Part shown: positions 44,362 to 62,731 of the stretch, piece after piece
Position numbering within the stretch: position 1 is the stretch's first letter
Layout: each line of letters starts with the position of its first letter
IMG/VR virus record: IMGVR_UViG_2802428982_000005
Span: 19,927 to 83,926 of that record
DNA: 64,000 nt
Strand: one strand, 5' to 3'
From: a virus
Lineage: Duplodnaviria > Heunggongvirae > Uroviricota > Caudoviricetes
Notes under the pieces: model-generated
Seen by the model: only the letters and a program-made list of their open reading frames with translations
The model's database searches: none
Told to the model about the DNA's origin: nothing
Made by a program: the position numbers and the translations under genes

Positions 44362-44363
44362 AG

Positions 44364-44741: not shown

Positions 44742-44743
44742 GC

Positions 44744-45472: not shown

Positions 45473-45474
45473 GG

Positions 45475-48670: not shown

Positions 48671-48882
48671 AGTCCTGTCTCCGTTGGGTTGTCGACCCAT
48701 GGCTGGTAGTGCTCGGGGCAGCGGATACCGCCCTGGCCGTCGAGGTCGATGGCGATCATGGCGGGGTGGCCACAGTCGGTTATGCCGCATTCGCCGAGGT
48801 CGGTGTCGTTGATGGTGAAGGTGATTCCGCCGCTGGTGGTGTAGATGCCGGTGCGGATGTGGACTGTGTGGCTCACCGTCAT
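48667..48882 (-). CDS. small Cys-containing protein (71 aa)
   Basis: ATG 48882..48880 overlaps the upstream stop (ATGA). Confidence 0.4.
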   Translation of the reverse strand: MTVSHTVHIRTGIYTTSGGITFTINDTDLGECGITDCGHPAMIAIDLDGQGGIRCPEHYQPWVDNPTETGL

Positions 48883-49349: not shown

Positions 49350-50308
49350 CGGTTTACGTCGCTGTCTACGTCGCTGTGCACGTGCTCGATGGCCTTGTTA
49401 GGGTCTGCGGTGCGCCAGTCAGGCCACGTGCGTTGCTCGTTCCTGGTCTGCTTCGCAAGGATCGCGTCGATGATTTGTTGCGGTTCCCAGCCCGCGCGCC
49501 AGGCTCCGTCGAAGGCCAGGATGATGACGTCTACCCATTCGGAGATGTCGTCAGGGGCGTCCCGTATCTCGTTCAGCTCTTTGCCGATGTGGTCCAAGAC
49601 TCCGTTGGTTCGGGCACCCGGGCCGAAGGTTGCGAGGCTGAATGCACGCTGTCGCGCCAGGTGTGCTGCGTCTATTACGCGGGTGGGTGACGTGCCCGGT
49701 CGCTGCTGTTCGTCCACCGTTGTGGGCTCACCGCACCCGGCCGCCCCGAACTCGTCCCATGGGATAAACCGGTCTACTTCGAAGACCTCACCGCGCCGGA
49801 CGCGCATACGGTCGATGGCGTTGTCGACGTTGGTTTCATTCGCGCGGGCCTTGCACCAGAACCCCCATAGGCGTACCCGCCGCCCTGTCACGATGAGTGT
49901 CCAGCACGGGAGCTTGCGCTGATCGCGACGCGCGAGGAACTGATTTGAGTGCGTCGCGGCCGGTACTAACTCCACGCGGTGACGCCATGTGCCTCGCCGG
50001 AATGCCAGCGGCCGGTCGCCCCAGAACAGGCGCCACGGCTCCGGGGCGGACCTGACGGACCGACCCTCCTCAGTGACCTCCACGTACTGCCCCCACAACA
50101 TCAGGGAGACGAACCACCAGGGGTGGTCGTGCAGGGCGCGGTCGTCGTCGTCACGCAGGAACTTGTGTAGGTAGATGTTGAGCCACCGGTTGCGAGGGAT
50201 TACGTACCAGCGCAATAGGTACGGCGCCTCGCCTTCGGCGCCGATGGGTTGGTGCGGTTCCAGGCGCAGCCACTTGCGCAGCCAGCCTTTGTTGGTGGGC
50301 GCAGTCAT
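49346..50308 (-). CDS. two-domain protein with C-terminal MazG-like nucleotide pyrophosphohydrolase domain (320 aa)
   Basis: C-terminal LDHIGKELNEIRDAPDDISEWVDVIILAFDGAWRAGWEPQQIIDAILAK (MazG/HisE-like EExxE helix pair); N-terminal DHPWW-containing domain of unknown function. Confidence 0.5.
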   Translation of the reverse strand: MTAPTNKGWLRKWLRLEPHQPIGAEGEAPYLLRWYVIPRNRWLNIYLHKFLRDDDDRALHDHPWWFVSLMLWGQYVEVTEEGRSVRSAPEPWRLFWGDRPLAFRRGTWRHRVELVPAATHSNQFLARRDQRKLPCWTLIVTGRRVRLWGFWCKARANETNVDNAIDRMRVRRGEVFEVDRFIPWDEFGAAGCGEPTTVDEQQRPGTSPTRVIDAAHLARQRAFSLATFGPGARTNGVLDHIGKELNEIRDAPDDISEWVDVIILAFDGAWRAGWEPQQIIDAILAKQTRNEQRTWPDWRTADPNKAIEHVHSDVDSDVNR

Positions 50309-50697
50309 CGACGATCACCCGCTCCTTTAACGCGGAGACGGGCCGCGACAGTCGGGGCAACGCCGTCCCAGTTGTGCCAGGTGCGGGCGCAGGCTTGACA
50401 GATCCACGCTTCAAACGGGCTGTGCCCCGTCCTGACTATGAGGGACGCCTTGCAATACGCACAGCGCATAAGTGTCTCGACAGACACGGTTTCTGGCGGT
50501 TCGTCTTCGGACGAGACGGTGGCATGGATGCCCATGACGTTGGTCTCGACCTCCATGCCGCCAGTGAGCCGTTGCACCAGCTTGTCAGTGTCGACGGCCT
50601 TCGAGGTGACCTCGATCTGGTCGGCGAAGCTGCGGACCAGGCGGCCGGATAGGTCTAAGAGCGCGTTGACGGCGCGTTCAATGTCGTTGGTGGTCAA
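50305..50697 (-). CDS. hypothetical protein with C-terminal zinc ribbon (130 aa, TTG start)
   Basis: TTG 50697..50695 overlaps the upstream stop TGA (TTGA); CAYCKAS...CQAC. Confidence 0.4.
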   Translation of the reverse strand: MTTNDIERAVNALLDLSGRLVRSFADQIEVTSKAVDTDKLVQRLTGGMEVETNVMGIHATVSSEDEPPETVSVETLMRCAYCKASLIVRTGHSPFEAWICQACARTWHNWDGVAPTVAARLRVKGAGDRR

Positions 50698-50990
50698 TGT
50701 TTCTTCCCCTTGTTTCGGCGTTGGCGCCGGTTGCCGCCCGGGTGTGCCAACGGGATCTCGGCGCGCTGGTGGGCGCGTTGTGGTTGTGGGCGTGGGATAG
50801 ACCGGAAGGTGACCTTTGTCTGGTCGGCCTCGGGGTCGTAGACCGCGGCCACGGGTGTGTAGAGGGCTCCGAACATGTCCGGCCCCCATCGCTGGTTGAC
50901 ACTCATGACGTGGTCGGCGATGTCGCCCCGGTAGTTGAGGGTGTTTCGTTTGGCCGTGGGGAACATGTCGGCCTGTGTGAGTGTCGCCAT
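50694..50990 (-). CDS. hypothetical protein (98 aa)
   Basis: ATG 50990..50988 overlaps the upstream stop (ATGA). Confidence 0.4.
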   Translation of the reverse strand: MATLTQADMFPTAKRNTLNYRGDIADHVMSVNQRWGPDMFGALYTPVAAVYDPEADQTKVTFRSIPRPQPQRAHQRAEIPLAHPGGNRRQRRNKGKKH

Positions 50991-51469
50991 CAGGGCTCCT
51001 TGGTGTTGTTTTCGCAGGCGTGGCATAGGGCGGCTTTGACGCCCATGCGTGTGCCGGTGATCGCGTTTGGATTGGCGCACTTGTCGCAGGCTGGCGGATC
51101 AGCCCAGTGGTTGATGTCGCCTTGATAGAGGGCAAGTTGCCGGTAAACGTCCTTGCCGACGTCTGGCACTTCCGCATCCCAATTGGTCTGCTGCTCCAGC
51201 CATTTAGCGAACGCGACGGCCACGTCTGGGTCAACGGCGCGCGGCTCTCCCGGGCACTCGATGGGGTCTTCCTGGTAGAGCTTCACGACCTCTTTGCAGC
51301 TCACAATGTGGGTTAGAGACCACACCGCGGGGTTGAGGAACTTCTCGCCCGTGTCGGTGTCGACCATGATGGCCGGATGCATCGCGAAGTGGTCAGTCAC
51401 TTTGTCCGCGGTAACAGTCAGCCGGTCGCCCTTCTCTCCGACCAGTTCCAGCCGTACGAGTGTCATCAC
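50990..51469 (-). CDS. hypothetical Cys-containing protein (159 aa)
   Basis: ORF; CDKCANPN...CHAC. Confidence 0.4.
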   Translation of the reverse strand: MMTLVRLELVGEKGDRLTVTADKVTDHFAMHPAIMVDTDTGEKFLNPAVWSLTHIVSCKEVVKLYQEDPIECPGEPRAVDPDVAVAFAKWLEQQTNWDAEVPDVGKDVYRQLALYQGDINHWADPPACDKCANPNAITGTRMGVKAALCHACENNTKEP

Positions 51470-51741
51470 ACCTCCCCTGGTTCGAGTGCTTCGACGACCG
51501 GGTGGATGACCTGTGACGGGGCGAGGGTGACCGCGATTTCTGCTGTTATGGGCGAGAATTCAGCCGCATCCACTGTCACCCCGACCTTGACGGTGATCTG
51601 GTCGCGCGCCAGCTTCGCCGGGCGGTTGGCCCGGTACCCGGCGATACGCAGGCCGTTGACGACCTTGAGTCCGTCATCGCCTGTGCGGTAGCCGCGGGAC
51701 GCCTCCAAGATCAGGTAGCCGGTCGCGGTGTGTGTAGTCAC
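51466..51741 (-). CDS. hypothetical protein (91 aa, GTG start)
   Basis: GTG 51741..51739 overlaps the upstream stop (GTGA). Confidence 0.4.
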   Translation of the reverse strand: MTTHTATGYLILEASRGYRTGDDGLKVVNGLRIAGYRANRPAKLARDQITVKVGVTVDAAEFSPITAEIAVTLAPSQVIHPVVEALEPGEV

Positions 51742-52139
51742 CCGGCCGCCGCCTTCTCCTTGGCGGCCTGCTCTGCGGCCTTGATGTTGACCGCGTTCTC
51801 GATGATCGGGTCCATGTAGGTGTACGCGTCCCCGGGTAGCACGCTGACCTTCACCGTTTCGCCGCGCACCTTCTGGACTGCATTCGCCCACCGCCGCAAC
51901 TTGGCGACGTCGGACAGCTGCTCGGACGACGGGCAGGTGTTTTCTAGCCAGGTGTGCTGGTCGCGGAGGAACTTGCCGCACACGTCCTTCGCCCGCGGTA
52001 TCTGGTGCAGAAAGATCCGGTTGCCGGTCATGTGCGACAACAGGTCCTGCACCTGCACCACGGTGCAGACGGCGCCTTCGGGGAGTCCGTTGGTGACGGC
52101 TAACACCGCCACCAACGGGAACTCCTTCCTCCTGCTCAC
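51738..52139 (-). CDS. hypothetical protein, paralog of 33536..33922 (133 aa)
   Basis: See paralog alignment under 33536..33922. Confidence 0.5.
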   Translation of the reverse strand: MSRRKEFPLVAVLAVTNGLPEGAVCTVVQVQDLLSHMTGNRIFLHQIPRAKDVCGKFLRDQHTWLENTCPSSEQLSDVAKLRRWANAVQKVRGETVKVSVLPGDAYTYMDPIIENAVNIKAAEQAAKEKAAAG

Positions 52140-52960
52140 AGCTCGCGGATCGTGTCGGGCGCGGGACCGAACACGGACTTGATGACAGCCAGCTTCGCCA
52201 CCTCAGCGTCGAACGCCGCGTCCTTGACGTCCCCGGCGCGGTCCAGCTTGTAGCCGAGGAGCAAGCCGTCCTGGCCGATGCGGAACCGCAGGCGGGCGGT
52301 GAGGTCGTACACGTCGCCGCGCTCGTAGACGGGGATGCGGAGGGTGAAGTGCTCGGGCACCTCGATATGTCCGCCTTTGCCGCCAGCGGTTGCGGTGGCC
52401 TCCTCCTTGTACTGGAACTGCACCTCGCCGGACTGGGTTCGGTGGCCGGACTGGAACTCGACCTTGCGCTTCGTCTGGAAGTTCTGCACGACCTCCATCA
52501 GGTCGGCCGCCGGTGGTGAGGTGATGGCGGCTAGGCCGTCCTCGATGTGCTCGGCGAACGCAATCTGGTTGAGCAGCTTGCCGTCGGCTGCCGCCCAGTG
52601 GTTCCACTCGCGGGACAGCTGGAGCGCTACCACGATGCGGTGGTCACGCCAGCCTTTGTCGTTCAGTACCGCGGTGATTCGGCTGGGGCCGCGGTCGGCG
52701 TACGCGACGGCATCGAGGTGCAGGGCGCCGTCGGTCAGCTTGTTGAAGCTGTCGACGTCCAGCACGGTGGTGGTGCCGCGGTCGCGTCGAGGGTTCGGCA
52801 GGTACCGCTCCAGCGAGTCGAAGTCGCGGCCCTCGTCGTCGCGGGTGACGAACGACAGGACGTGCTCGGTGTCGGGAACAACCTGCTCGGTGCTGTAACG
52901 CTCCGCCGCGTTGGCGAGTTCGGCGACAGCGTCTGCCTCGGTACGGATTTCGTCGGTCAT
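52136..52960 (-). CDS. hypothetical protein (274 aa)
   Basis: ORF; no motif recognised. Confidence 0.45.
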   Translation of the reverse strand: MTDEIRTEADAVAELANAAERYSTEQVVPDTEHVLSFVTRDDEGRDFDSLERYLPNPRRDRGTTTVLDVDSFNKLTDGALHLDAVAYADRGPSRITAVLNDKGWRDHRIVVALQLSREWNHWAAADGKLLNQIAFAEHIEDGLAAITSPPAADLMEVVQNFQTKRKVEFQSGHRTQSGEVQFQYKEEATATAGGKGGHIEVPEHFTLRIPVYERGDVYDLTARLRFRIGQDGLLLGYKLDRAGDVKDAAFDAEVAKLAVIKSVFGPAPDTIREL

Positions 52961-52963
52961 GGG

Positions 52964-53329
52964 TCAGGCTTCCTTTCGGATGTTCGTGGTGCTCTCGGCG
53001 ACCGCTTTCATGGACTCGAACTGGAGTTGCGCCGGGTCGGTGCGGGTGACGTTGCCCTCGCGGTCGACGAACCAGAGGGATACCTGGCGGTCGGCCTGCG
53101 GCGCCTTGACAGTCACGTCGTCCTTGATGACCAACATGGAGGTGTTGGCCTGCTCAGAAACGCTGAGCTTCAACGTGAGTGACCCGGCCTTGCCGGTCGC
53201 GCGGACGGCGGCGACGACTTCCTTGAGGCCGTCGGACAGCTCGTCGTGCACGCGGCCCTTCTGTAGTTCCCGCAGGAAGTCGGCGAACGGGCGTACCCGG
53301 TCCGCTTCCTCGGGGGCTGGAGTGGTCAT
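52964..53329 (-). CDS. hypothetical protein (121 aa)
   Basis: ATG 53329 (MTTPAPEEADRVRPFADFLRELQKG...). Confidence 0.4.
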   Translation of the reverse strand: MTTPAPEEADRVRPFADFLRELQKGRVHDELSDGLKEVVAAVRATGKAGSLTLKLSVSEQANTSMLVIKDDVTVKAPQADRQVSLWFVDREGNVTRTDPAQLQFESMKAVAESTTNIRKEA

Positions 53330-53355
53330 ATGGGCGGTGTTCCTTTCGTGGGGTG

Positions 53356-54243
53356 TTACTTGATGGGTGCGGGGATGGTGGCGAGGGCGCCGGTGCCGGG
53401 CCAGCAGCCCCACGGCGACATGCCCTTGTCCAGTGCCTTCGTGATGCAGTTCTGCACAATCACGTTGGGGTCGTTGGACACTGATGAGGAGAGGATGCGG
53501 TTGGCCTCGGCCTGTTCGGTGGCCGTCTTCTTCGCCTGTTCGGCCTTCGCGGTGTTCGCGCGCTCTGCGTTGAGCTCGTTGATACGGGCCTCGGTGCCGT
53601 CGTCGTAGTCGATGGTGGGGACGGCGACGTCCAGGATGTCGACCTGGTCACCCACCAGGGCGCGCAGCTTCTCGGACGCTTCCTTGGCGAAGGTCTCCAG
53701 CGGTAATCCGTTGGCCCACTTGGTTGCCAGTGGGTCGAGCTTGGAGAACACGTCGTTGAGTGAGACCTGGAGGTTGCGGGTGATCAGGTTGGTGCGGACG
53801 TTGTCGAATGACCGGTATTGCACGTACAGCTCGTCGGCGGCGTCCTGCTTGATCTGCCAGCGCACGGATACGTCAGCGTCGGCGGTGGACGAGTTGCCTA
53901 GTCGGACCTTGATGCGGCCGGTGCCCTCGTATTTGTCGATCTGGACTGCTGCGTCCATCTCATCGACTGTCGCCCACGGCTTCTTCCAGTGCAGACCGTT
54001 GGACAGGGTGTCGCCGGACGGCTTTCCGAATACCGTCTCGATACCAACCTTGCGTGTACCAACGACCGTGAAGGAGCCGATCACGAGGACGAGGACGGCG
54101 ATAGCCAAGGCGATACCGCCAATGAACAGTGTCACTACGGGGCCATCAGCACGCCGGTTGAATCGGCGGCCGACAAGCCCGCCCAGCAGTAGCAGTAACG
54201 CAATACTGCCGAAGATCAGGAATGTTACGAATTCCCAGGACAT
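53356..54243 (-). CDS. SPFH/Band-7 (prohibitin/HflK-like) membrane protein (295 aa)
   Basis: Two N-terminal TM helices; signature VGIETVFGKPSGDTLSNGLHWKKPWATVDEMDAAVQ; coiled-coil Ala/Glu-rich C-terminus. Confidence 0.65.
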   Translation of the reverse strand: MSWEFVTFLIFGSIALLLLLGGLVGRRFNRRADGPVVTLFIGGIALAIAVLVLVIGSFTVVGTRKVGIETVFGKPSGDTLSNGLHWKKPWATVDEMDAAVQIDKYEGTGRIKVRLGNSSTADADVSVRWQIKQDAADELYVQYRSFDNVRTNLITRNLQVSLNDVFSKLDPLATKWANGLPLETFAKEASEKLRALVGDQVDILDVAVPTIDYDDGTEARINELNAERANTAKAEQAKKTATEQAEANRILSSSVSNDPNVIVQNCITKALDKGMSPWGCWPGTGALATIPAPIK

Positions 54244-54247
54244 TTGG

Positions 54248-55456
54248 TTAGTTCTCCTTGTTGTTGAGTGCGGCGATTAGGTTTGCCGCTTCGTTTTCGG
54301 ACAGGTCGTTGACGTCCGATATGTCCCTGCCGATGACCGTCTTGAGGTAGGCCAGTGCGTCGGCAGCGGATTCTTTGGTGCGGAACGAGTACTTGGCGTT
54401 GCCTAGAAGGCCGCGGACGGTGCCGATGTCCTTCTTCGTTGCCAGGTACTCGCCTCGGCTGTTCACTTCTGCCGGGTCGGCTCCGTCAGGTGTTCCGCTG
54501 CCGGACGGCGGGATGAGGTCACCGCCGTCCGGCGCGGGGACCTCCTCGGCCGCGGGTTCTGTAGCGCCCGAACCCGTTTCCGGGTCCCCGATGGTGGGCG
54601 CCAGATCACCGGTGGTCGTTGCCGCGGGGTCCGTCTTCGGAGTGGCCTTTGTTTCTGTTGCGCGGGCGGCGATTTCGTCTTGGGTGGACTGTGAGGCGGG
54701 CGGGAAGATCTCGCGCTGGTCCATGCCGTCGCGGGTGATGGAGGTGTACGTGATGCCCATCTGGGCGACGTCTCCGGCGTCCCAGGCGCCGCGCTTCTTC
54801 CCGATCCGGGCCTCCATCTGGGCCTCGGTGACACCGAGTTCCTGCCGGAACTTGGCGACCATGGTTTCGATGCGGTCCTTGAGGGGGACGCCTTCGCCCT
54901 TTTCCAGGGTGTTGCGGCACAGGTCCTGCGCCATCTCGGTAAACCACTTCGGCAGCACCGACGAAATGCATTCGCGGACAGCGCGGGCACCGGCGTTGTT
55001 GTTGTTGTTCGTGATGTCGCCGAGGTCGTTTAGCTCCTCGCGGCGCCCCTGCTTCATACGGGCGTGCGGCACGATGAACGTACGTGTGGAGCGCGTGTTG
55101 GTCTGGACGTCCCAGGCGAATGCCTGGATCTCGGACTCAGCTTTGAGGTCGTCGCGGTGCAGCTCGTTGACGCCGTATTGAACGTTGCCCCACAGCCGGG
55201 CCAGCTCGCGCATGAGGTGCACGGAGGGGCCGGTGCCGCGGTTGGGCACCTGGTAGAACGCCTGTACCGCCATGGCCATGCGGCTGCACGCGTCCCGCAT
55301 TTCCGCCTCCGCACGCTGGAGGTCACGGGGAATCTGTTGCGCCACAATGACTGCTGACTGGACCTCGGCGACGGCGCGGGACTGTTCCACCGAGGTGGCT
55401 TGGCTGATCGCGGTCCGGGGTGCGGCGGCGATGGGCTGGTACTGCGAGACGGTCAT
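54248..55456 (-). CDS. putative single-strand annealing protein (RecT/Erf-type, called by context), 402 aa
   Basis: Lies directly downstream of, and translationally coupled to, a RecE/YqaJ-type exonuclease; Asn/Thr/Pro-rich linker and acidic C-terminal tail; no family motif confirmed. Confidence 0.4.
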   Translation of the reverse strand: MTVSQYQPIAAAPRTAISQATSVEQSRAVAEVQSAVIVAQQIPRDLQRAEAEMRDACSRMAMAVQAFYQVPNRGTGPSVHLMRELARLWGNVQYGVNELHRDDLKAESEIQAFAWDVQTNTRSTRTFIVPHARMKQGRREELNDLGDITNNNNNAGARAVRECISSVLPKWFTEMAQDLCRNTLEKGEGVPLKDRIETMVAKFRQELGVTEAQMEARIGKKRGAWDAGDVAQMGITYTSITRDGMDQREIFPPASQSTQDEIAARATETKATPKTDPAATTTGDLAPTIGDPETGSGATEPAAEEVPAPDGGDLIPPSGSGTPDGADPAEVNSRGEYLATKKDIGTVRGLLGNAKYSFRTKESAADALAYLKTVIGRDISDVNDLSENEAANLIAALNNKEN

Positions 55457-56352
55457 TAGTCAAGGTCTCCTTCTTGCTGGTAGATGGCGTAGCTGGGCAG
55501 GGATATGGAGTTGATGCCCTGGCCGTAGTCCGGCCAGTGGTCGTTGGCAACGCATTGCGCGTAGAGGTCGATGGCCTTGCGGTTGCGTCGTCGGCCGAGA
55601 TCGATTGCGGCGGGGTCTAGTTCGTTGACCGACACGAGGTAGGGCGGGTTCTTGGACTGGACGATGAACACGAACGCGGCGTCGTCGGCTATCTCGCATG
55701 CCGCTAGCCCGTCGAGGTACCAGGGGGCCTGCATGTGGTACCCGTATTCGGCTGCCGCCTTGGCGAAGTGACCTGGGTGCGCCGATGTCGAGGTCTTGTA
55801 GTCGACAACCACCAGGCGGTGGCGGCCGGGGTTGGGGAGCCAGTCGGGCCGGAGGCGCAGTCGCACCCCGGTTTCAGGGTCGTGCCAGTACCCGGATAGC
55901 TCGGGTGTTCCGTCTGCCAGCAGGATGCGGGCAATGGGGTGCTCGCGGACCTTGGCGGCCATAGCCTTTGCCTCCGCGACATCGTCGATGTGCATGGGTA
56001 TCTGGCCGTTAGCGCGGGCCTCCTTCGCCGCCTCCTTCCACATAGCGGTCGATGTAGGCGAGTCGGACACCTTGCCGTCTTTGGTCAACCCGTGTTCCTT
56101 CGGGTCTAGCGCGACGATCTCCCCGCCCTCGCCGAGTACGTACAGGTGGGCAGCGTGGCCGAAGTCGTACTCCTTCTTCGGTGTCCGCGGCTGGTCCTGG
56201 TAGTGGCGGAATATCGCTGGGCATGAGGGCGCCAGGAGCGCGCGGGCGCCGGAGGAGGACAGGCTGCCGCGGTCTGCGTGGTAGGCCTCGTCGGGGATAC
56301 CGGCATACATGCCGTCCACGGCAGGGATCAGCTTGGTGTCGGCGGCGGTCAT
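55456..56352 (-). CDS. RecE/YqaJ-like PD-(D/E)XK exonuclease (298 aa)
   Basis: ATG 56352 overlaps the HNH stop; VVVDYKTS (D..E.K-type motif); MTAADTKLIPAVDGMYAGIPDEAYHADRGSLSSSG N-terminus typical of YqaJ-like proteins. Confidence 0.55.
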   Translation of the reverse strand: MTAADTKLIPAVDGMYAGIPDEAYHADRGSLSSSGARALLAPSCPAIFRHYQDQPRTPKKEYDFGHAAHLYVLGEGGEIVALDPKEHGLTKDGKVSDSPTSTAMWKEAAKEARANGQIPMHIDDVAEAKAMAAKVREHPIARILLADGTPELSGYWHDPETGVRLRLRPDWLPNPGRHRLVVVDYKTSTSAHPGHFAKAAAEYGYHMQAPWYLDGLAACEIADDAAFVFIVQSKNPPYLVSVNELDPAAIDLGRRRNRKAIDLYAQCVANDHWPDYGQGINSISLPSYAIYQQEGDLD

Positions 56353-56699
56353 GCGTTGCGGCCCTTCGGTAGGTAGTTGTCGTGCAGGTAGATGTCGTGC
56401 AGAGGCAGCGCGATGGGGGTGTCGTAGAGGTTCTGGCCGTGGGTGAGGGTGAGTCCGACTGCTTCGGCGTCCACCGGGTTGGTGGTGACCCAGTGGTGGC
56501 AGTCGCGGCACAGGTGCACGATGTTGGCCGGGTGCCACTGGCCGCCCTGTGACCGATTGCGGCGGTGGTGCATGTCTGTCCCGTGCTGCTTGCCGCACCA
56601 CTCGCACCAGCCCATTGACCGGCCCTTGACGTGCTCACGAGTCAGGTCTTCGGTCCACTGGGATATGTACGGCTCTGCCCAGATGTCCTCTGTTGTCAC
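56349..56699 (-). CDS. HNH endonuclease (116 aa, GTG start)
   Basis: CEWCG...HHRRNRSQGG...NIVHLCRDCHHW; GTG 56699..56697 overlaps the upstream stop. Confidence 0.65.
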   Translation of the reverse strand: MTTEDIWAEPYISQWTEDLTREHVKGRSMGWCEWCGKQHGTDMHHRRNRSQGGQWHPANIVHLCRDCHHWVTTNPVDAEAVGLTLTHGQNLYDTPIALPLHDIYLHDNYLPKGRNA

Positions 56700-56881
56700 G
56701 CTGCGGCTCGCCGTTCCCAGATGTGTTTGACGCGTGGGGTCCACGGCTCGCACAGGTCGAACTTCTCGTACGACATGGGGCAGCGCGCGATGCCGTGTGG
56801 GTCGTGATGCGCCAGGACGTTGCCCTTGGGTGTGCGGAACACGGTTGCACCACACACCGGGCAGCGTCGACGCGCGCTCAT
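56696..56881 (-). CDS. small zinc-ribbon protein (61 aa)
   Basis: CPVCG...C..C. Confidence 0.4.
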   Translation of the reverse strand: MSARRRCPVCGATVFRTPKGNVLAHHDPHGIARCPMSYEKFDLCEPWTPRVKHIWERRAAA

Positions 56882-57096
56882 TCGTCGTCACCAGGGGCCT
56901 CACGAAGGACGTTGTCTCGTACCCACTTACGGGCTGCGGCACGCGCAGCAGCGGTGGTTGGGAACGGTCCCGGGTGAAAGTGCACGTTGCCCTTGTTGGA
57001 GAACCAGCGCCAGCTCCAACCGGTGCCGTCGTTGCGTTCCTGGGTGGTTATGGCACCAGGTAGCGGCTTGGCCTTTTTGCGTGCTGTCATGCCGCT
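56878..57096 (-). CDS. small hypothetical protein (72 aa)
   Basis: ATG 57096 (MTARKKAKPLPGAITTQERNDGTGWSWRWF...); the rest of the 327-aa ORF-track entry is Arg/Pro-rich run-in. Confidence 0.35.
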   Translation of the reverse strand, partial: SGMTARKKAKPLPGAITTQERNDGTGWSWRWFSNKGNVHFHPGPFPTTAAARAAARKWVRDNVLREAPGDDE

Positions 57097-57872
57097 ATGC
57101 CCTTCTTGCGTAGTCGCTTGAGCCGTGCCTCGACGGATTCCGTTGTGACTCCCATGCGTTCGGCGATCTCGTCGTTGGACAGTCCGAGGTCGAGGTAGTC
57201 GCGGTACAGGTCGATCCACACGACCTGCCCTCCGCGGACGTGGGCCGTTGCCGCTGGGTCGTCGATTTCGGTGTCGTCCCATGCCACCGGCGGCGGCCAT
57301 CCCCTCTGCGTGGCGATGCGCCGTGCGACGTCGGAAGGACCTGGGACCTCCTGCAACTCGCGGTACAGCGCGTCGATCTCTCGGGCGCGGGCCACCGTGA
57401 CCTTCTTGACGGCGCCCGTCGCGACCTTGGACAGGCCGCCGGGGTCTAGCCCGAGGCGTACCGAGAGGTGCTGTTGAGACCATCCGACCGCGGAAAGGGC
57501 CAGGACGCGGCGCCGTGAACCGGTGGCATCGATCCGCGCGCCAGCGGCCATCTGCGGCCCAAACGGACATACAGGCACCGGGATAGCGAGGATGGCGGCG
57601 CGGGTGGTCCGTTTCACCAGCCGTTGGTCTTCCCTGGTCAGGAAGTCGATGGCGCGGTGGGTCACTCCAGCTAGTTCTGCAATTCGGGATATGCCGACGC
57701 CCGCTGCTATGAGGGCGAGGACGCGGGTGCGGGTGTCGTCCGCTGGTACGTGTAGTGGGCTCCAGCGGCCGTCGGAGACGGCGAGGCGCCGGTACTTTGC
57801 GTAGTGGGTGGGGCACAGCCCGCGGGCCTGCACCAACTCGGTGCAGTTGGGGCGGGTGCATTCTTTCCTCAT
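57087..57872 (-). CDS. multi-HTH DNA-binding protein with N-terminal Cys motif (261 aa)
   Basis: CTRPNCTELVQARGLCPTHY; repeated helix-turn-helix-like segments (ISRIAELAGVTHRAIDFL; NDEIAERMGVTTESVEARLKRLRKKG). Confidence 0.5.
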   Translation of the reverse strand: MRKECTRPNCTELVQARGLCPTHYAKYRRLAVSDGRWSPLHVPADDTRTRVLALIAAGVGISRIAELAGVTHRAIDFLTREDQRLVKRTTRAAILAIPVPVCPFGPQMAAGARIDATGSRRRVLALSAVGWSQQHLSVRLGLDPGGLSKVATGAVKKVTVARAREIDALYRELQEVPGPSDVARRIATQRGWPPPVAWDDTEIDDPAATAHVRGGQVVWIDLYRDYLDLGLSNDEIAERMGVTTESVEARLKRLRKKGIAA

Positions 57873-58123
57873 GCTGCGCGGTTCCTGCGGCGCGCCTTGC
57901 GGGCCGCGCGGTTCCTGCGGCGCCGACGCTGGACCTCGTCTGCGGGCACTGTCCCGGCGTAGGTGTTGGCCTGTCGTTGCAGTCCCAGGAAGACGGCGTA
58001 CCCGAGGGTGTTGGAATTGGCGGCTGTCTGCTTCCGTAGCCGCTCCATGGGCGATAGTTCGCTCATGGAGATCTCGATGTTCTTGCTCACCAGTTGGTTG
58101 TGGCGTGCGACGGGGTCGTTCAT
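57869..58123 (-). CDS. small basic protein (84 aa)
   Basis: ATG 58123 overlaps the upstream stop (ATGA); C-terminal RRRRRNRAARKARRRNRAA encoded by a tandem 17-bp direct repeat. Confidence 0.4.
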   Translation of the reverse strand: MNDPVARHNQLVSKNIEISMSELSPMERLRKQTAANSNTLGYAVFLGLQRQANTYAGTVPADEVQRRRRRNRAARKARRRNRAA

Positions 58124-58692
58124 TGGTCCTTCCCGGGGTAGAGGCGGCGGAAGCATTGGACGGTTGCGCGGGCGTCAGCTATCGCGGTGTGTTCGGCTTC
58201 GTTGGTGACGCCGACGAGTTCGCAGACCTTGGCGAGGCCGGGTATGTCGTCCGGCGAGATGTCGAGTTGGCCTGCGGTGTAAGCACATAGGTCTGCGAGC
58301 CGGTGGTGCCAGGGCTCTTCGATGCGGGTGCTGACCCCGGCTACGAGTGGCCCCTGTTCTAGCTGCCACGCGTATCCGTTGAGGAGCATGTCGGCGTCGA
58401 ACCTGGGGTTGGCGCCTGCCAATGTTTGGCCGTGCAACAACTCGAACAGGTCTTGGTAGCAGCGAATCGAGTTGTTGCGGTCGAGCTGGTCTTTGTACAG
58501 CGCTCGCTCGTGGTATTTGTTGATCCGCATGGCTTCTCGGTCCGCTTGTCCTAGTGCCTCGCCGGTGATGAAGGGCACGAAGTGGATTTCGCGTCCGTTC
58601 TTGAGGTTGATCGCGGCCACTTCCACGGGTAGATGGACGGCCCGGTCGAGTCCGGTTGTCTCCAGGTCGATGACCCATACGTCGCGGCTCAT
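58120..58692 (-). CDS. DnaQ-like DEDDh 3'-5' exonuclease (190 aa)
   Basis: Exo I VIDLETTGL, Exo III HTAIADARA; ATG 58692 overlaps the upstream stop (ATGA). Confidence 0.7.
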   Translation of the reverse strand: MSRDVWVIDLETTGLDRAVHLPVEVAAINLKNGREIHFVPFITGEALGQADREAMRINKYHERALYKDQLDRNNSIRCYQDLFELLHGQTLAGANPRFDADMLLNGYAWQLEQGPLVAGVSTRIEEPWHHRLADLCAYTAGQLDISPDDIPGLAKVCELVGVTNEAEHTAIADARATVQCFRRLYPGKDQ

Positions 58693-58988
58693 GCAGTCCT
58701 CCAGCGGGATGCCTTGGTGTACAGGTCGATGAGTGGTTGATGCCATGGGCAGTAGGCGGATACCGAGAGAGCGATGACGCGTCCGGCGGCCTGGTCGGTG
58801 AACCCCCGTTGGTTGAGCGCCTGGCCGATGCTGTTGATGCCGTGGAAGGTTGGGTCGGCGCCGACGATGACGCAGACTGCGCCGCCGATGTCATTGGCGA
58901 CGTCGTTTACCCTGTCGGCCGACGCAGGCGCTGCGGTAGCGAGCGCCAGCGCGGCAGCCATAGCGGCGGCGGGAAGTTGGCGAATCAT
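58689..58988 (-). CDS. small secreted protein with Sec signal peptide (99 aa)
   Basis: MIRQLPAAAMAAALALATAAPASA|DR (AxA cleavage site); 2 Cys in the mature part. Confidence 0.5.
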   Translation of the reverse strand: MIRQLPAAAMAAALALATAAPASADRVNDVANDIGGAVCVIVGADPTFHGINSIGQALNQRGFTDQAAGRVIALSVSAYCPWHQPLIDLYTKASRWRTA

Positions 58989-59599
58989 GCTGCGGCCTCC
59001 ACCAGCGCCAGGAGGCTACGCACGCGGGGCACTCGGTCCTCGTAGATGTCTGGATACTCTTCGGCTCGACGCAGATAGCTATCGAGCGCGCCTCGGAATC
59101 CGTCGCGCTCTTCGGTGGTGAGCAGCGCCCATTCGTCCGGCAGGGCCACGGCGGCGTCGCTATAGATCGCGGTGCTTCCGAGATTGCCTCCGGGGTCGGT
59201 GATCACGGACATACTGGCGCGGCGGTCGTAGAAGGCGGCCTTGTAGAAGACACTGACGCGTTCTACGCCTCGGTCGTCGACGATGGTTGAGTGCATGGCG
59301 TGTTCACTGCCCTTGCGTGACCACCCTTCCGGGAGGGTGGCCCGAACGAATAGCGGATCGCCCTCAACGCGTTCGCCGCGTTGGAATCCCCACTGTTCCA
59401 GAACATCCCAGCCACTGATGTCGAGCATTGCGTCGCCCTCGCCTGACCACACTCGCCCGGCGTTGGCAGGGAGGAGGTCGGACGTGAGGAGCTGCTGTTG
59501 CCCAGTTCGCTCCATGCCCTCGATGTAGTTGGAGGTGTTGCCGTTCAGGCAGCCAGCTAGGTGCTCGATGGGGTGGCGTTGCGAGGTGTTCTCAATCAT
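58985..59599 (-). CDS. hypothetical protein (204 aa)
   Basis: ORF. Confidence 0.45.
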   Translation of the reverse strand: MIENTSQRHPIEHLAGCLNGNTSNYIEGMERTGQQQLLTSDLLPANAGRVWSGEGDAMLDISGWDVLEQWGFQRGERVEGDPLFVRATLPEGWSRKGSEHAMHSTIVDDRGVERVSVFYKAAFYDRRASMSVITDPGGNLGSTAIYSDAAVALPDEWALLTTEERDGFRGALDSYLRRAEEYPDIYEDRVPRVRSLLALVEAAA

Positions 59600-59776
59600 G
59601 CTGCTGTACCCCAGATTTCAGCCGGGCTGCCATGCTTGGCGGCCAGCTCGTCCCAGATTGGGTTGGGACTTGGGGGCGTCGGTGGCGGTGTCGGTTGGAC
59701 ACCGAATAGGGCGCGGCGCCACCACTTGGATTCTCGTACGGGCATAGCTGTCTCCTTGTGCTGAGTGAGTGGTTGA

Positions 59777-60133
59777 TCAGGTCAGAGCTAGTTGTTGGCT
59801 GCCGCCGAGGCGGTAGTGCATTTCCGCGACACCGTTAGGGGTTAGGTAGATCTGTTTGGGACGTTCTTTGGTTTGCCCTGCGGGCGTTTGGTATTCGCCG
59901 CCGTCGTGGAGTGCGAGGTAGCCGAGGGTTACGGATTCGGCGTAGGCGATCCAGCGGTGGTCACGGCCGCGGAATATCCATTCCTCGCGGGCCATGGCGT
60001 CGAAGAGTTGGTCGCGGCCGACGGCGATTGCCGGGTCGAGGGATAGCAGGCGCGCAGCTTCGGCCACGGTTTGGTCGCCGGTGATGTCCGTGAGATGCAT
60101 TGGCAACTCGGGTCGTTGGTGGATGCGCGCCAT
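59777..60133 (-). CDS. KilA-C-like antirepressor domain protein (start 60133 or 60100)
   Basis: VAEAARLLSLDPAIAVGRDQLFDAMAREEWIF...WIAYAESVTLGYLALHD...QIYLTPNGVAEMHYRLG matches the KilAC pattern (HTH-like helix, then Y..GY.., then TPKG...). Confidence 0.45.
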   Translation of the reverse strand: MARIHQRPELPMHLTDITGDQTVAEAARLLSLDPAIAVGRDQLFDAMAREEWIFRGRDHRWIAYAESVTLGYLALHDGGEYQTPAGQTKERPKQIYLTPNGVAEMHYRLGGSQQLALT

Positions 60134-60229
60134 GTCATCACCGGGCGGCCATGACGTTGACCGTGAGGACGACGCCAACGAAGGCACCGAACAGGAGCAT
60201 CCAGAACATGGGGACGACTACCTCGCGGA

Positions 60230-61093
60230 TCACCGGAGTACTTCCTGTGCTGGTGCGCCTACGAGCTGCGGGAAGTTGGTCTTATTCCAGCCTCCCTTGG
60301 GCTGCTGCAACCGGGCCACGTGGTGGTCGGATAGCCAGTGGTTGAAAGCGGCGACGAAGTAGCCGATGGCCTCGGCGTCGGGCATCTTGAAGCCCTCGCC
60401 ACGAACGCGGTCGAACCTGTTGCGCAGTGCAAGGATTGGCGAGCCGATTTCGAGGCCGACGCCGTCGAGGGTGCGTTGAAAGAATTCGGAGGTGACCTCG
60501 ACACCGTGGATGCGGCCGATGCCCGCGTAGACGGCCATGATGAGGCCGCGGCGCGCCTTGATGCGCGTGTAGTGGGTGCCGCGCCTGATCAACTCAAAGG
60601 TGTCGGGGTTGGCGAGGGTCCATTCGACGATCTCAGAGCTGGTGACTGCGCCGGTGGCGCGGTCGGTGTAGAACCAGCCGCGCTCCCAGATAATCAGCGT
60701 CTTGACGGCCGAGGCATCGGACTTGGAGGCGGTGATACCGGACAGGTTGAGTTGGTCGCTGGGTGACCGTTTGGTGCCCTGATCCATGGTGATCTGGGTT
60801 TCGGGTGGCAGGTTGCGGACGACGACCGAGTCGATGGACACACCGCACAAGGAGACGGCGTGAAGGCGGTGCTGGCCGTCCAGCAGGGCGCCCTCGGTAT
60901 CGAATTTGATTGCCTCGCCGTTCATCTGCCAACGGCCTGCCTCCATGTCGGCGGCCAGCTGGATGACCTTGCGCTCGTTGAGGGGGCGGTTGTGGGTGTT
61001 GAACTTGAGGTACGCGTCGGCGGTCGGGCCGTCGATGGTTTCGATGTCCGTCGTGATGGCCGGTGGCCGGTGCAGCGGTATAGCATTCGACAT
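60230..61093 (-). CDS. ParB/Srx-superfamily DGQHR-motif protein (287 aa)
   Basis: ATG 61093..61091 with AAGGAG SD 8 nt upstream; GALLDGQHRLHA. Confidence 0.55.
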   Translation of the reverse strand: MSNAIPLHRPPAITTDIETIDGPTADAYLKFNTHNRPLNERKVIQLAADMEAGRWQMNGEAIKFDTEGALLDGQHRLHAVSLCGVSIDSVVVRNLPPETQITMDQGTKRSPSDQLNLSGITASKSDASAVKTLIIWERGWFYTDRATGAVTSSEIVEWTLANPDTFELIRRGTHYTRIKARRGLIMAVYAGIGRIHGVEVTSEFFQRTLDGVGLEIGSPILALRNRFDRVRGEGFKMPDAEAIGYFVAAFNHWLSDHHVARLQQPKGGWNKTNFPQLVGAPAQEVLR

Positions 61094-61113
61094 GAAGCAA
61101 CTCCTTGTTGTGG

Positions 61114-61953
61114 TTACGAGGGGAACTTCTCGATGACGCGTTGCAGCGCGTCTCGTGCGCGGACCAGGTCGCTCTTGCGTAGGGCGAGTTGGTCCGCGTT
61201 CTTGTCGAAGCGGTCGTCGGCCGCCAGTGCCTCTATCCGCTTCACCGCCTTCGTGACTGCCGTGGTGGCGTCGTCGAAGGAGTCTGTGATCGGTTTCCGG
61301 CGCGCTGGGGCTGGCGCTGGCTCGGGTTCCGGTTCTGTCGCGACAGGTTCCGTCAGGTCGTCGCAGTAGCGGTGGATGTCGTCGAACTCGTCGAAGCGTT
61401 CGCGGTCTACACCGTCGGTCACGGGTGCGTTGTGCACGACTGAGTACCCGTCGCCGGAGATAAGCAGCGACGGGGTCAGTGGTGGCCCGGAGGCCGTCCC
61501 GCCTTCGCACATCGGGGCGGTCTCCGGGTGGTCTTCGGTTGTGGGGAGGTCTGGCACGACGGCCAGGTGAGGGCGGACAGGCTGGGTGGACGCGTACGTC
61601 TTGCCGTCGGTGCCCATGACAGCCGCAGGTGCGGCAGATGCCGCGCCTGACAGGTCGCGGCGGACGGTGCGGTCATCGACCCCTATCGCGGAGCCGATGG
61701 CGCGCGTGGACAGCCCGAGGTCGCGCAGGGACTGCACCACCTCGCCGCGGGTCTCGCGGGGCAGCTTGAACCAGGTGGACCCGAACTCGCGTTCGCAGTA
61801 GACGTCCCAGGTCGGGTATCCGAGGACAGCCCAGGCGCGGTCTGTGTATGCCTTGGCGATGAGGTCCCAGGCGCGGTCAATGGTGGTGCGGATGCGCTCG
61901 GTGAGGTCACGAGCGGCTGACGGGGACATAGCGGTGGCTGCGACGGTGCTCAT
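61114..61953 (-). CDS. HTH DNA-binding protein (279 aa)
   Basis: LGLSTRAIGSAIGVDDRTVRRDL helix-turn-helix; second gene of the early (Cro-side) operon. Confidence 0.45.
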   Translation of the reverse strand: MSTVAATAMSPSAARDLTERIRTTIDRAWDLIAKAYTDRAWAVLGYPTWDVYCEREFGSTWFKLPRETRGEVVQSLRDLGLSTRAIGSAIGVDDRTVRRDLSGAASAAPAAVMGTDGKTYASTQPVRPHLAVVPDLPTTEDHPETAPMCEGGTASGPPLTPSLLISGDGYSVVHNAPVTDGVDRERFDEFDDIHRYCDDLTEPVATEPEPEPAPAPARRKPITDSFDDATTAVTKAVKRIEALAADDRFDKNADQLALRKSDLVRARDALQRVIEKFPS

Positions 61954-62183
61954 GACGCGGCCTGGGCGTAGTCGTTGAGGTCGCGGGTGGCCTGGCGCGC
62001 CTGTGCGTATAGGCGCACTGCCTGGTGGTCGAGCAGGTAGGTCTTGCCGACCAATCGTGCAGGGATGCGGCCGGACACAGCGAGTGCCTGGAGAGTCCGT
62101 TTAGAGACGTCATACAAGGTGGCGGCCTTGCTGACGGTGATCTCGTCGGCGGTGGTGCTCGACTCTTCGGGGCGTGCGGGCAT
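61950..62183 (-). CDS. Cro/excisionase-like HTH protein (77 aa)
   Basis: ATG 62183 (ORF-track TTG 62219); VSKAATLYDVSKRTLQALAVSGRIPARLVGKTYL, a MerR/Xis-type helix-turn-helix; divergent from the repressor. Confidence 0.55.
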   Translation of the reverse strand: MPARPEESSTTADEITVSKAATLYDVSKRTLQALAVSGRIPARLVGKTYLLDHQAVRLYAQARQATRDLNDYAQAAS

Positions 62184-62336
62184 GCGCCTATCTTGCGCAT
62201 ATTCGCAAACTGCACGCAAGTGCCTTGTCTGAGATTTGTGCAGATAGGAACCGTTTAGCGTTTAGCTAGCAAGTGGCCATAGTTTGCGGATGGTTGCAGT
62301 TATGCCCACTTGCGGCCGTGCGCGTACGCGCATACC
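62184..62336. promoter_or_regulatory. divergent repressor / Cro-like intergenic control region
   Basis: Imperfect 16-bp palindrome ttgcgcatattcgcaa (62194-62209); direct repeat gtttagcgtttagc (62252-62265); lies between divergently transcribed HTH genes. Confidence 0.45.
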
Positions 62337-62645
62337 ATGCGCAATATGACTGCTGCATTCGAATCGGGAAATATCCCCCCGAGCCGCCTGCGACACCGCT
62401 TACGGATCGCACGCGAGGAGGCGCAACTAGATCAGCACCAACTAGCCGAACTCATGGGAGTCGGCCGGTCGGTGGTTGGCAATTGCGAGAGCGGACGGAC
62501 GGTGCCGAAGAAGATCGTCGTCAACGCTTGGGCATTGGCCTGCGGCGTGCCAGCGAGTTGGCTAGCCACGGGTGAAGGTGAGCAGCCGCCGGAAGATGAC
62601 GGCCCTATGGTGCGCCCGAAGGGATTCGAACCCCTAACCTTCTGA
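62337..62645 (+). CDS. XRE/cI-like immunity repressor whose ORF ends inside the host tRNA-Arg (start 62337 or 62346; ORF-track TTG 62310)
   Basis: HTH LDQHQLAELMGVGRSVVGNCESGRTVP; last ~12 codons (MVRPKGFEPLTF) are encoded by the tRNA-Arg 3' half; stop TGA 62643-62645. Confidence 0.65.
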   Translation: MRNMTAAFESGNIPPSRLRHRLRIAREEAQLDQHQLAELMGVGRSVVGNCESGRTVPKKIVVNAWALACGVPASWLATGEGEQPPEDDGPMVRPKGFEPLTF

Positions 62646-62683
62646 TCCGTAGTCAGATGCTCTATCCGTTGAGCTACGGGCGC
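62608..62683 (-). tRNA. tRNA-Arg (anticodon ACG), 76 nt with encoded CCA; prophage attachment junction at its 3' end
   Basis: Minus strand GCGCCCGUAGCUCAACGGAUAGAGCAUCUGACUACGGAUCAGAAGGUUAGGGGUUCGAAUCCCUUCGGGCGCACCA; cloverleaf with anticodon loop CUACGGA. Confidence 0.85.
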
Positions 62684-62731
62684 TTACTATTCAATTGTTG
62701 CAGGTCAACAGGTTTGGCCTGCAGACCGACG

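What the first reader, a model, noticed from the sequence alone, without database searches (positions are those of the whole stretch)
62184..62690. Repressor ORF runs through the attachment junction into host tRNA-Arg: signature of integration-dependent immunity
The plus-strand XRE/cI-like repressor gene is transcribed toward the host, and its last ~12 codons and TGA stop (62643-62645) lie inside the 3' half of tRNA-Arg(ACG), the reconstituted tRNA end at the att core. In mycobacteriophages with integration-dependent immunity (BPs, Brujita, Charlie-type), attP lies inside the repressor gene. Integration truncates the repressor, removes its C-terminal degradation tag and stabilises it, and the integrase ends up at the opposite prophage end. 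That matches the absence of an integrase anywhere in this 62-kb stretch. The element is much larger than the described phages of that type.
Basis: partly seen in the sequence, partly recalled or inferred. Interest (0 to 1): 0.7.

Follow-up and report, generated by a model that had tools for sequence, protein, structure and literature searches.

The report
Prophage repressor gene truncated by integration

Summary
An XRE-type repressor ORF (+ strand, 62346-62645) runs into the 3' half of tRNA-Arg(ACG) (- strand, 62608-62683) and stops at TGA 62643-62645.

The window is M. abscessus contig FSOG01000002.1, positions 20017-84016. I recovered the missing left junction on that contig, 12.6 kb left of the window. 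It carries:
- a duplicate of the att core
- a 35-codon continuation of the repressor frame ending in -EADAA
- a 334-aa tyrosine integrase

No integrase lies in the window. The reconstructed phage-form repressor is 134 aa against 99 aa in the prophage. It is 58% identical to the BPs-type repressor, and the similarity stops exactly at the crossover.

The element is a 75.3-kb cluster MabK prophage at attB-1, 94-97% identical to prophiGD43A-5 and prophiT37-1. GenBank notes on those records and Dedrick et al. 2021 (PMC8092301) already describe attP inside the repressor, including the stop codon completed by the first host base.

- Size is not unusual; MabK prophages and cluster Y phages are about 76-78 kb.
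- The integrase has no -AA tag.

Side observations:
- A satellite-like element sits in tandem at the far junction.
- A natural variant has a frameshifted tag.
- Y-RNA-like hits lie next to a Ro60 gene.

The parts
62346..62645 (+). Prophage (truncated) form of the immunity repressor, 99 aa. In-frame alternative starts at 62337 (ATG, 102 aa) and 62310 (TTG, 111 aa).
   Evidence: ORF list. Pfam HTH_31/HTH_3/Phage_CI_repr. 58% identity to Grizzly gp33 over residues 1-99. The alignment with gp33 and Bipper gp51 favours the ATG at 62346. Protein identical to that of prophiGD43A-5.
62643..62645 (+). Junction stop codon TGA. TG comes from the shared core and A is the first host-specific base. The phage form reads TGG here.
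   Evidence: attL in the window compared with the far junction of the same contig. The same statement is made for MabK in PMC8092301.
62610..62644 (.). 35-bp common core GTGCGCCCGAAGGGATTCGAACCCCTAACCTTCTG (attL copy). Identity between the two prophage ends extends to 38 bp (62607-62644).
   Evidence: Second copy at FSOG01000002.1 7383-7420. Left boundary from host-flanked far junctions in L026, L027, L034, L049 (GATGA|GTGCGCCC) against phage (CTATG|GTGCGCCC). Right boundary from CTG|ATCC (host) against CTG|GTCA (phage).
62608..62683 (-). tRNA-Arg(ACG), intact. Its 3' part (62608-62644) is the att core region and is supplied by or shared with the phage. It is transcribed towards the repressor gene.
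   Evidence: ARAGORN. Rfam RF00005, 71.6 bits, model 1-71.
62184..62345 (.). Divergent regulatory region between the repressor and the cro-like gene. Contains a 16-bp imperfect palindrome, TTGCGCATATTCGCAA (62193-62208), a candidate operator.
   Evidence: Repeat search. The motif occurs only here in the window. No sigma-70 consensus promoter was found. Function is inferred by analogy with the BPs 33-34 intergenic region (PMC4557955).
61950..62183 (-). Divergently transcribed small HTH gene, annotated 'excise' in relatives. It occupies the position of the cro-like gene (gp34) of BPs-type switches.
   Evidence: Pfam HTH_17, 1.2e-07. Annotation of prophiGD43A-5 gene 2, Grizzly gene 34 and Bipper gene 52.
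1..62644 (-). Right-hand 62.6 kb of a 75.3-kb cluster MabK prophage, with most genes on the - strand. The remaining 12.6 kb (lysis genes, polymorphic-toxin cassette, integrase, repressor 3' fragment, second core) lies left of the window.
   Evidence: 94-97% nucleotide identity and collinearity with prophiT37-1 and prophiGD43A-5. Contig stitching. Length 75,278 bp including both cores.

Best explanation
The window holds the tRNA-side attachment junction of a complete, integrated cluster MabK temperate phage of Mycobacterium abscessus. The phage uses a BPs-type integration-dependent immunity switch.

In the free phage the genes are ordered cro-like gene <- | -> repressor -> integrase. The attachment core, a copy of the 3' part of host tRNA-Arg(ACG), lies inside the repressor reading frame.

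The phage-encoded repressor is 134 aa. It carries a 35-residue C-terminal extension ending in -DAA, which by analogy with BPs gp33(136) marks it for proteolysis, so it does not establish immunity. Integrase-mediated recombination between this core and the tRNA-Arg gene splits the gene. The 5' part now runs into host sequence, where the first host base turns TGG into TGA. That gives a stable 99-aa repressor that maintains lysogeny. The tag-coding fragment and the integrase end up 75 kb away at the other junction.

Shown here: the gene split, both cores, the in-frame tagged extension, the integrase position, and homology to the BPs-type repressor. Inferred, not shown: degradation of the long form, stability and activity of the short form, and operator binding.
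For: 1. The overlap of ORF and tRNA is real.

2. The window equals FSOG01000002.1 20017-84016. L012 matches the window with no mismatch over 10,273 nt. L050 overlaps L012 identically over 8,531 nt.

3. On that contig the second core lies at 7383-7420. It is followed by the in-frame extension ...EADAA* and by the integrase at 7651-8655.

4. The repressor protein and its extension are identical to those of prophiGD43A-5. The GenBank record of that prophage annotates 'attP within the immunity repressor' at both ends, with a tyrosine integrase beside the far end.

5. Across about 40 MabK far junctions from other genomes there are 14 nucleotide variants and 5 protein variants of the extension. Between the variant groups they are 51-86% identical in protein and 66-87% in nucleotides. 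All are exactly 35 codons, all end in -AA, and only the repressor frame is open in all of them.

6. The repressor is 58% identical to the BPs-type repressor (Grizzly gp33), and the similarity ends at the crossover. The core is present in frame in the Grizzly and Bipper repressor genes, each followed by its integrase.

7. Experiments on BPs show that gp33(136) is degraded through a C-terminal tag and that gp33(103) is the active repressor (PMC4557955 and PMC3694055).

8. Dedrick et al. 2021 list MabK among the clusters with integration-dependent immunity at attB-1. They describe the stop codon formed by the first bacterial base, the tRNA transcribed towards the truncated repressor, and integrases without -AA tags.

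9. There is no integrase in the window. Pfam hits for ten other large ORFs are unrelated to recombinases.
Against: No experiment exists for MabK repressors, so tag-dependent degradation is carried over from BPs.

The integrase lacks the -AA tag of the classical systems.

prophiT37-1 and one other genome (L028) lack one base just after the core. Their phage-form repressor would end ...LTFC* without the tag, yet T37-1 still yields attP DNA in culture supernatants (PMC9934374). The tag may therefore not be indispensable in this cluster.

No consensus promoter was detected. The candidate operator occurs only once in the window.

No unoccupied M. abscessus attB was retrieved. The scan matched only Mycolicibacterium species and uncultured (metagenome-assembled) actinomycetes, so attB is reconstructed from attL and host-flanked far junctions.
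Confidence: 0.9

Rival explanations
1. The switch architecture is inherited from a BPs-like ancestor, but in MabK phages immunity no longer depends on integration. The extension would not be an effective degradation signal, and the long and short repressors would both be active.
For: The integrase has no -AA tag (PMC8092301). Natural variants (prophiT37-1, L028) have the tag out of frame, and T37-1 still releases attP-containing DNA. The switch sits in a 75-kb genome that also carries an antirepressor (KilAC domain, Pfam ANT, 3.4e-10), so other layers of control are possible.
Against: The extension keeps exactly 35 codons and an -AA end in 14 nucleotide variants that have diverged to 66% identity, and only that frame is open in all of them. 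This argues for selection on the tagged product. The frameshifted form is rare: 1 of about 40 junctions, plus the T37-1 record.
Confidence: 0.08
2. This is an ordinary tRNA-integrating prophage. The repressor ORF merely happens to stay open into the tRNA, and the overlap has no regulatory meaning.
For: Many prophages integrate at tRNA 3' ends. In GC-rich DNA an open frame of about 12 extra codons is not rare.
Against: The frame continues for 35 conserved codons across the reconstructed attP. Free phages carry the core inside the intact repressor gene, in the same frame. The integrase lies at the far end rather than next to the repressor, as expected only if attP lies between them.
Confidence: 0.02
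3. This is a decaying prophage remnant whose repressor was truncated by deletion, with the integrase lost.
For: No integrase is present in the 62.6 kb visible in the window.
Against: The full element is present on the contig: 75,278 bp, two identical 38-bp cores and an intact 334-aa integrase. It is collinear with complete MabK prophages. The relative T37-1 excises and appears in supernatants.
Confidence: 0.01

Closest known systems
Cluster MabK prophages of M. abscessus at attB-1: prophiGD43A-5 (MW584167) and prophiT37-1 (OQ417969). Described in Dedrick et al. 2021 (PMC8092301) and in PMC9934374.
   Same: 94-97% nucleotide identity across the window. Same tRNA-Arg site. Repressor protein and 35-aa extension identical to prophiGD43A-5. 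Same cro-like, DNA-binding, ParB-like nuclease and antirepressor genes next to the junction. Integrase in the same 90% cluster as that of prophiGD43A-5.
   Different: A mosaic of the two. The repressor and integrase ends are GD43A-5-like. The polymorphic-toxin region left of the window (748-aa TPR_23 protein) is T37-1-like but lacks one gene. In this genome the far junction abuts a second integrated element rather than host DNA.
Integration-dependent immunity of mycobacteriophage BPs and cluster G relatives (gp33/gp32/gp34). Broussard et al. 2013 Mol Cell, cited through PMC3694055 and PMC4557955.
   Same: Homologous repressor: 58% identity to Grizzly gp33, ending at the crossover. Same gene order, cro-like <- | -> repressor(core) -> integrase. 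tRNA-Arg-derived core inside the repressor gene, 33/35 identical. Truncation by 35 residues here, 33 in BPs.
   Different: The host phage is 75 kb, not 42 kb, and is otherwise unrelated in most genes. In Grizzly the repressor and integrase genes overlap; here 122 bp separate them. The C-terminal extensions are not alignable: Grizzly ends -DKAS, this one -EADAA. The integrase here has no -AA end.
Cluster Y mycobacteriophages (Bipper, 77.8 kb; also Typha, Cracklewink)
   Same: Similar genome size. The repressor gp51 contains the identical 35-bp core (35/35), ends in -CDAA, and is followed by a tyrosine integrase. Tail and head genes share about 77-78% nucleotide identity with parts of the window.
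   Different: These are free phages of M. smegmatis. Only 9-15% of the first 24 kb of the window aligns at the DNA level.
Brujita-type (cluster I1) and Charlie-type (cluster N) integration-dependent immunity
   Same: Same principle: attP within the repressor gene (PMC3694055).
   Different: No sequence match to these appeared in the searches here. The actual relatives are BPs-type.

Membership tests
Integration-dependent immunity switch (BPs type) | [quoted passage not shown] | tested here: met
   Joining attL (window) to the far junction of the same contig gives one 134-aa ORF that spans the core.
Integration-dependent immunity switch (BPs type) | Integration truncates the repressor at a stop codon at the junction (20-35 residues shorter) | tested here: met
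   TGA 62643-62645 is formed with the first host base. 99 aa against 134 aa, so 35 residues are removed.
Integration-dependent immunity switch (BPs type) | Integrase lies downstream of and co-oriented with the repressor in the phage, and so at the opposite prophage end after integration | tested here: met
   Integrase at FSOG01000002.1 7651-8655, 122 bp after the repressor 3' fragment, on the same strand. None in the window.
Integration-dependent immunity switch (BPs type) | Phage-form repressor carries a C-terminal ssrA-like (-AA) degradation tag | tested here: met
   The extension ends ...LEADAA. All five protein variants in relatives end -AA. This tests sequence only. Degradation itself is a separate row.
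Integration-dependent immunity switch (BPs type) | Divergently transcribed cro-like gene sharing a regulatory region with the repressor | tested here: met
   HTH_17 gene at 61950-62183 (-), 162 bp from the repressor start. Same arrangement in Grizzly and Bipper.
Integration-dependent immunity switch (BPs type) | Integrase also C-terminally tagged (-AA) | tested here: not met
   The integrase ends ...LPPLYPGS. PMC8092301 reports the same for MabK and several other clusters and still counts them as integration-dependent. This feature is common but not defining.
Integration-dependent immunity switch (BPs type) | Long form unstable and inactive, short form stable and confers immunity | not testable with these tools
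   Shown for BPs gp33(136) and gp33(103) only (PMC4557955).
Integration-dependent immunity switch (BPs type) | Sequence homology of the repressor to a characterised member | tested here: met
   BLASTP against Grizzly gp33: 58% identity, E 1e-37, over residues 1-99 and 1-103.
Cluster MabK prophage at attB-1 | Genome-wide nucleotide similarity to MabK members | tested here: met
   prophiT37-1 covers 100%, 79% and 90% of the three window segments (97.1%, 95.9% and 96.4% identity). prophiGD43A-5 covers 99%, 93% and 94% (95.5%, 95.1% and 93.8% identity).
Cluster MabK prophage at attB-1 | Integration at the 3' end of the tRNA-Arg gene next to tRNA-Ser, with the tRNA 3' end rebuilt | tested here: met
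   tRNA-Arg at 62608-62683 is intact and tRNA-Ser lies at 62731-62820. The prophiGD43A-5 record starts at the position equivalent to window 62644. I did not check the ATCC 19977 coordinate of attB-1 directly.

The most novel reading that the evidence does not exclude
The switch itself leaves no room for novelty. The most novel reading still open concerns its surroundings. The tRNA-Arg site may be a habitual tandem docking site. At this site a roughly 10-kb element uses the same 35-bp core and sits against the integrase-side junction of MabK prophages. It encodes its own tyrosine integrase, a primase/polymerase-like protein, a short major-head protein, a scaffold-like protein and an HNH nuclease. 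It could be a capsid-forming phage satellite that uses MabK phages as helpers. This would be a satellite type not yet described for M. abscessus.

Among 18 distinct far-junction contexts, 12 abut another integrase-bearing element, 8 of them with this 387-aa integrase. This element lies outside the window. Its dependence on a helper is pure inference.
Probability: 0.12. Interest if true: 0.5.

Novelty: already known. Interest (0 to 1): 0.12.

Why it matters
There is little new biology here. This is another isolate of a described prophage cluster, carrying a described switch.

It has practical value for annotation. In M. abscessus lysogens the active immunity repressor is the truncated gene at the tRNA-side junction. 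The integrase and the tag fragment lie 75 kb away. Pipelines that expect the repressor and integrase side by side, or that call the repressor 'partial', will misread such prophages.

For phage therapy and for the use of repressors as selectable markers, the short prophage form is the one to clone, as PMC8092301 points out.

The case also shows that a reader working from raw sequence alone can recognise this architecture and correctly predict what lies beyond the window.

Tried and rejected
1. Retrieving an unoccupied M. abscessus attB. I used an exact 48-nt pattern spanning host flank, core and anticodon arm. It matched only six Mycolicibacterium and uncultured (metagenome-assembled) actinomycete genomes, and not the M. 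abscessus representative. The core boundaries were therefore derived from attL plus host-flanked far junctions.

2. Reaching the left junction. Extending 10 kb from a window gene fell 3.7 kb short. Integrases P0001, P0002, P0003, P0123, P0135 and P0137 led to other genomes. P0136 finally hit the window's own contig.

3. Operators and promoters. No sigma-70 consensus promoter or terminator was found at 61900-62720. The 16-bp palindrome is unique in the window, so there is no evidence for dispersed BPs-like operator sites. I left this as a candidate only.

4. The Broussard 2013 primary paper (PMC3557535) is not held. I cited its content through PMC3694055 and PMC4557955.

5. I considered and rejected three alternatives: chance ORF overlap, a decayed prophage, and a hidden integrase in the window.

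6. Serine recombinases were not searched with a dedicated profile. Pfam scans of ten large non-structural ORFs showed none. The annotated relatives list only the one tyrosine integrase in the stretches I read.

Full report
**1. What is in the sequence**

ARAGORN finds two tRNA genes on the minus strand: tRNA-Arg(ACG) at 62608-62683 and tRNA-Ser(GCT) at 62731-62820. Rfam confirms both as full-length tRNAs, at 71.6 and 51.6 bits.

A histidinol-phosphate-aminotransferase-like ORF follows at 62957-64000, so host DNA starts at the tRNA.

On the plus strand an ORF is open from 62310, with in-frame ATGs at 62337 and 62346. It ends at TGA 62643-62645. Its last 38 nt lie inside the 3' half of tRNA-Arg.

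The product matches the Pfam families HTH_31, HTH_3, HTH_19 and Phage_CI_repr.

A small HTH_17 gene is transcribed divergently at 61950-62183. Further in lie a DNA-binding protein, a ParB-like nuclease gene and a KilAC-domain antirepressor.

**2. What the element is**

The junction region (61900-62644) is 97.7% identical to the start of GenBank record MW584167, prophiGD43A-5 of M. abscessus.

The three segments of the window (1-24000, 24001-48000, 48001-62700) are collinear with prophiT37-1 and prophiGD43A-5. Identity is 94-97% and coverage 79-100%.

Both are cluster MabK prophages of about 76 kb integrated at attB-1 (PMC8092301 and PMC9934374). Both GenBank records annotate the immunity repressor as a split feature at the two ends. 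A tyrosine integrase is annotated next to the far end.

**3. The window's own left junction**

A 54-aa protein encoded at window 109-273 led to contig FSOG01000002.1 (assembly GCA_900140105.1). That contig matches the window with no mismatch over 10,273 nt.

I searched with the MabK integrase and looked up members of its clusters. Integrase P0136 lies on the same contig. The locus containing it (L050, contig 1-18655) overlaps the first locus identically over 8,531 nt. So the window is contig positions 20017-84016.

At contig 7383-7420 (window -12633..-12596) lies ATGGTGCGCCCGAAGGGATTCGAACCCCTAACCTTCTG. This is identical to window 62607-62644.

Directly after it, in the repressor frame, come 35 codons, WSVVRNPLTCIDTEPTDLVAHRSRRRAAELEADAA, and then a stop. 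The 334-aa integrase starts 122 bp further on, on the same strand.

The prophage is 75,278 bp including both cores.

A profile built from 121 tyrosine integrases finds nothing in the window (best E 0.46). It scores 1.5e-153 and 1e-59 on the two integrases in L050.

**4. Anatomy of the crossover**

In other genomes some far junctions are flanked by host DNA (L026, L027, L034, L049). They read ...GGATGA|GTGCGCCC. The phage side of attL reads ...CCCTATG|GTGCGCCC.

On the other side the host continues CTG|ATCCGTAG, the anticodon arm, and the phage continues CTG|GTCAGTAG. The strict common core is thus 35 bp, 62610-62644.

The phage reads TTC TGG (Phe-Trp) and goes on. The lysogen reads TTC TGA. 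The stop codon is completed by the first host base, exactly as PMC8092301 states for MabK.

In prophiT37-1 a C/T difference within the core (the position equivalent to window 62635) is phage-type at attL and host-type at the far junction. If it reflects the parental sequences, strand exchange occurs in the last 9 bp of the core. This rests on one polymorphism.

The native host gene has CTC after the discriminator base, whereas the phage-supplied end encodes CCA.

**5. Is the extension meaningful?**

Across about 40 MabK far junctions in other assemblies there are 14 nucleotide variants of the extension, giving 5 protein variants. Between the variant groups, protein identity is 51-86% and nucleotide identity 66-87%.

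Every one is exactly 35 codons and ends in -AA (EADAA, DTAAA, ETAAA, HTAAA). Only the repressor frame is free of stops in all of them. That is the pattern expected of a translated, selected C-terminal tail.

**6. Relation to the characterised systems**

The 134-aa reconstructed repressor is 58% identical (E 1e-37) to gp33 of Grizzly, a cluster G phage of the BPs type. The alignment covers residues 1-99 against 1-103 and stops at the crossover. In BPs the prophage form is gp33(103) and the phage form gp33(136) (PMC4557955).

Grizzly and the 77.8-kb cluster Y phage Bipper carry the core (33/35 and 35/35) inside their intact repressor genes, in the same frame. In each the integrase follows, and a divergent 'excise'/cro-like gene precedes. 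Bipper gp51 ends in -CDAA.

For BPs it has been shown that the long form is degraded through its C-terminal tag and that the short form is the active, tetrameric repressor. Integration is therefore required for immunity (PMC4557955 and PMC3694055).

**7. Most likely mechanism**

This is a BPs-type integration-dependent immunity switch in a MabK phage.

Shown here: the split gene, the two cores, the tagged in-frame extension, the integrase at the far end, and the homology.

Inferred from BPs: proteolysis of the 134-aa form, and stability and repressor activity of the 99-aa form.

Points of caution:
- The integrase ends ...LYPGS, without an -AA tag. This was already noted for MabK.
- prophiT37-1 and one other genome (L028) lack one G right after the core. 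Their phage-form repressor would end ...LTFC* and the tag is out of frame.
- I found no consensus promoter. The only candidate operator is a 16-bp imperfect palindrome at 62193-62208.

**8. Novelty**

There is none for the finding itself. Dedrick et al. 2021 name MabK among six clusters with attP inside the repressor gene. They describe the junction stop codon, the convergent tRNA and the untagged integrase. The repressor protein here is identical to that of prophiGD43A-5.

**9. Things seen on the way**

- Left of the far core in this genome is a second integrated element, not host DNA. It has a 387-aa tyrosine integrase, a primase/polymerase-like protein, a short major-head protein, a scaffold-like protein and DUF2742. 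In a complete copy (L036) it also has an HNH nuclease and an NlpC/P60 protein. In L016, L028 and L040 it is bounded on the host side by the same 35-bp core.
- Of 18 distinct far-junction contexts, 12 abut another integrase-bearing element. The two M. abscessus prophage papers do not mention this. The mycobacterial satellites reported in a 2025 preprint are of a different kind, with a serine integrase and a tape-measure protein.
- A Ro60/TROVE gene at 34666-36489 is preceded by three sub-threshold YrlA (Y RNA-like) hits.

Noticed in passing
Outside the window: FSOG01000002.1 1-7382 (window -20015..-12634), locus L050 1-7382. Complete copies in L016, L028, L036, L040.: A second, roughly 10-kb integrated element sits in tandem against the integrase-side junction of the MabK prophage and uses the same 35-bp tRNA-Arg core. 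It encodes a 387-aa tyrosine integrase, a primase/polymerase-like 515-aa protein, a short (282-aa) major-head protein, a scaffold-like protein, DUF2742 and HTH proteins. In the L036 copy it also encodes an HNH nuclease and an NlpC/P60 protein. The gene set resembles a capsid-forming phage satellite. 12 of 18 distinct MabK far-junction contexts abut another integrase-bearing element. The two M. abscessus prophage papers read here do not mention it.
   Followed up: partly
prophiT37-1 (L004, record end) and FSJC01000005.1 (L028, about 9680-9700): One G is missing immediately after the att core (CTTCTG-TTAGG against CTTCTGGTTAGG in L026). The phage-form repressor would then end ...LTFC* and the -TAAA tag ORF is out of frame. 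This is a natural variant in which integration would barely change the repressor. It was seen in two assemblies.
   Followed up: partly
L043 1-340 (FVNJ01000002.1, contig end): A genome assembly contains an uninterrupted, attP-like arrangement at a contig end: a T37-1-type repressor 5' part, the core, a GD43A-5-type tagged extension, then the integrase. It could reflect tandem MabK prophages or reads from the excised circle.
   Followed up: no
window 34666-36489 (-) and 36677-37106 (-): The prophage encodes a Ro60/TROVE protein (TROVE 1.5e-46, Ro60 vWA 4.9e-63). Just upstream are three YrlA (Y RNA-like) matches below Rfam's gathering score (best 38.9 bits, E 4.6e-06, full model length), plus an overlapping weak tRNA-like hit. 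The gene is annotated 'Ro-like RNA binding protein' in relatives. The RNAs are not annotated in the stretches I saw.
   Followed up: partly
window 62607-62610 compared with host-flanked far junctions (L026, L049, about 9650-9660): The native host tRNA-Arg gene is followed by CTC, so CCA is not encoded. The phage-supplied 3' end in the lysogen encodes CCA. The lysogen's tRNA-Arg precursor therefore differs at its 3' end from that of a non-lysogen.
   Followed up: no
window 28000-32000: G+C dips to 0.59-0.60 against about 0.65 elsewhere. The region includes a 493-aa ORF (29873-31354, -) with no Pfam match and ORFs on the opposite strand. prophi79-1 and other prophages share only patchy similarity here. 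It may be a mobile or defence-type insert in the early region.
   Followed up: no
window 47067-48179 (-), 49346-50308 (-), 55456-56607 (-): Other identifiable early-region genes: a DUF5131 protein (5.1e-87), a dATP/dGTP pyrophosphohydrolase-domain protein, and a PD-(D/E)XK/DUF3799 exonuclease (RecE-like in relatives).
   Followed up: no
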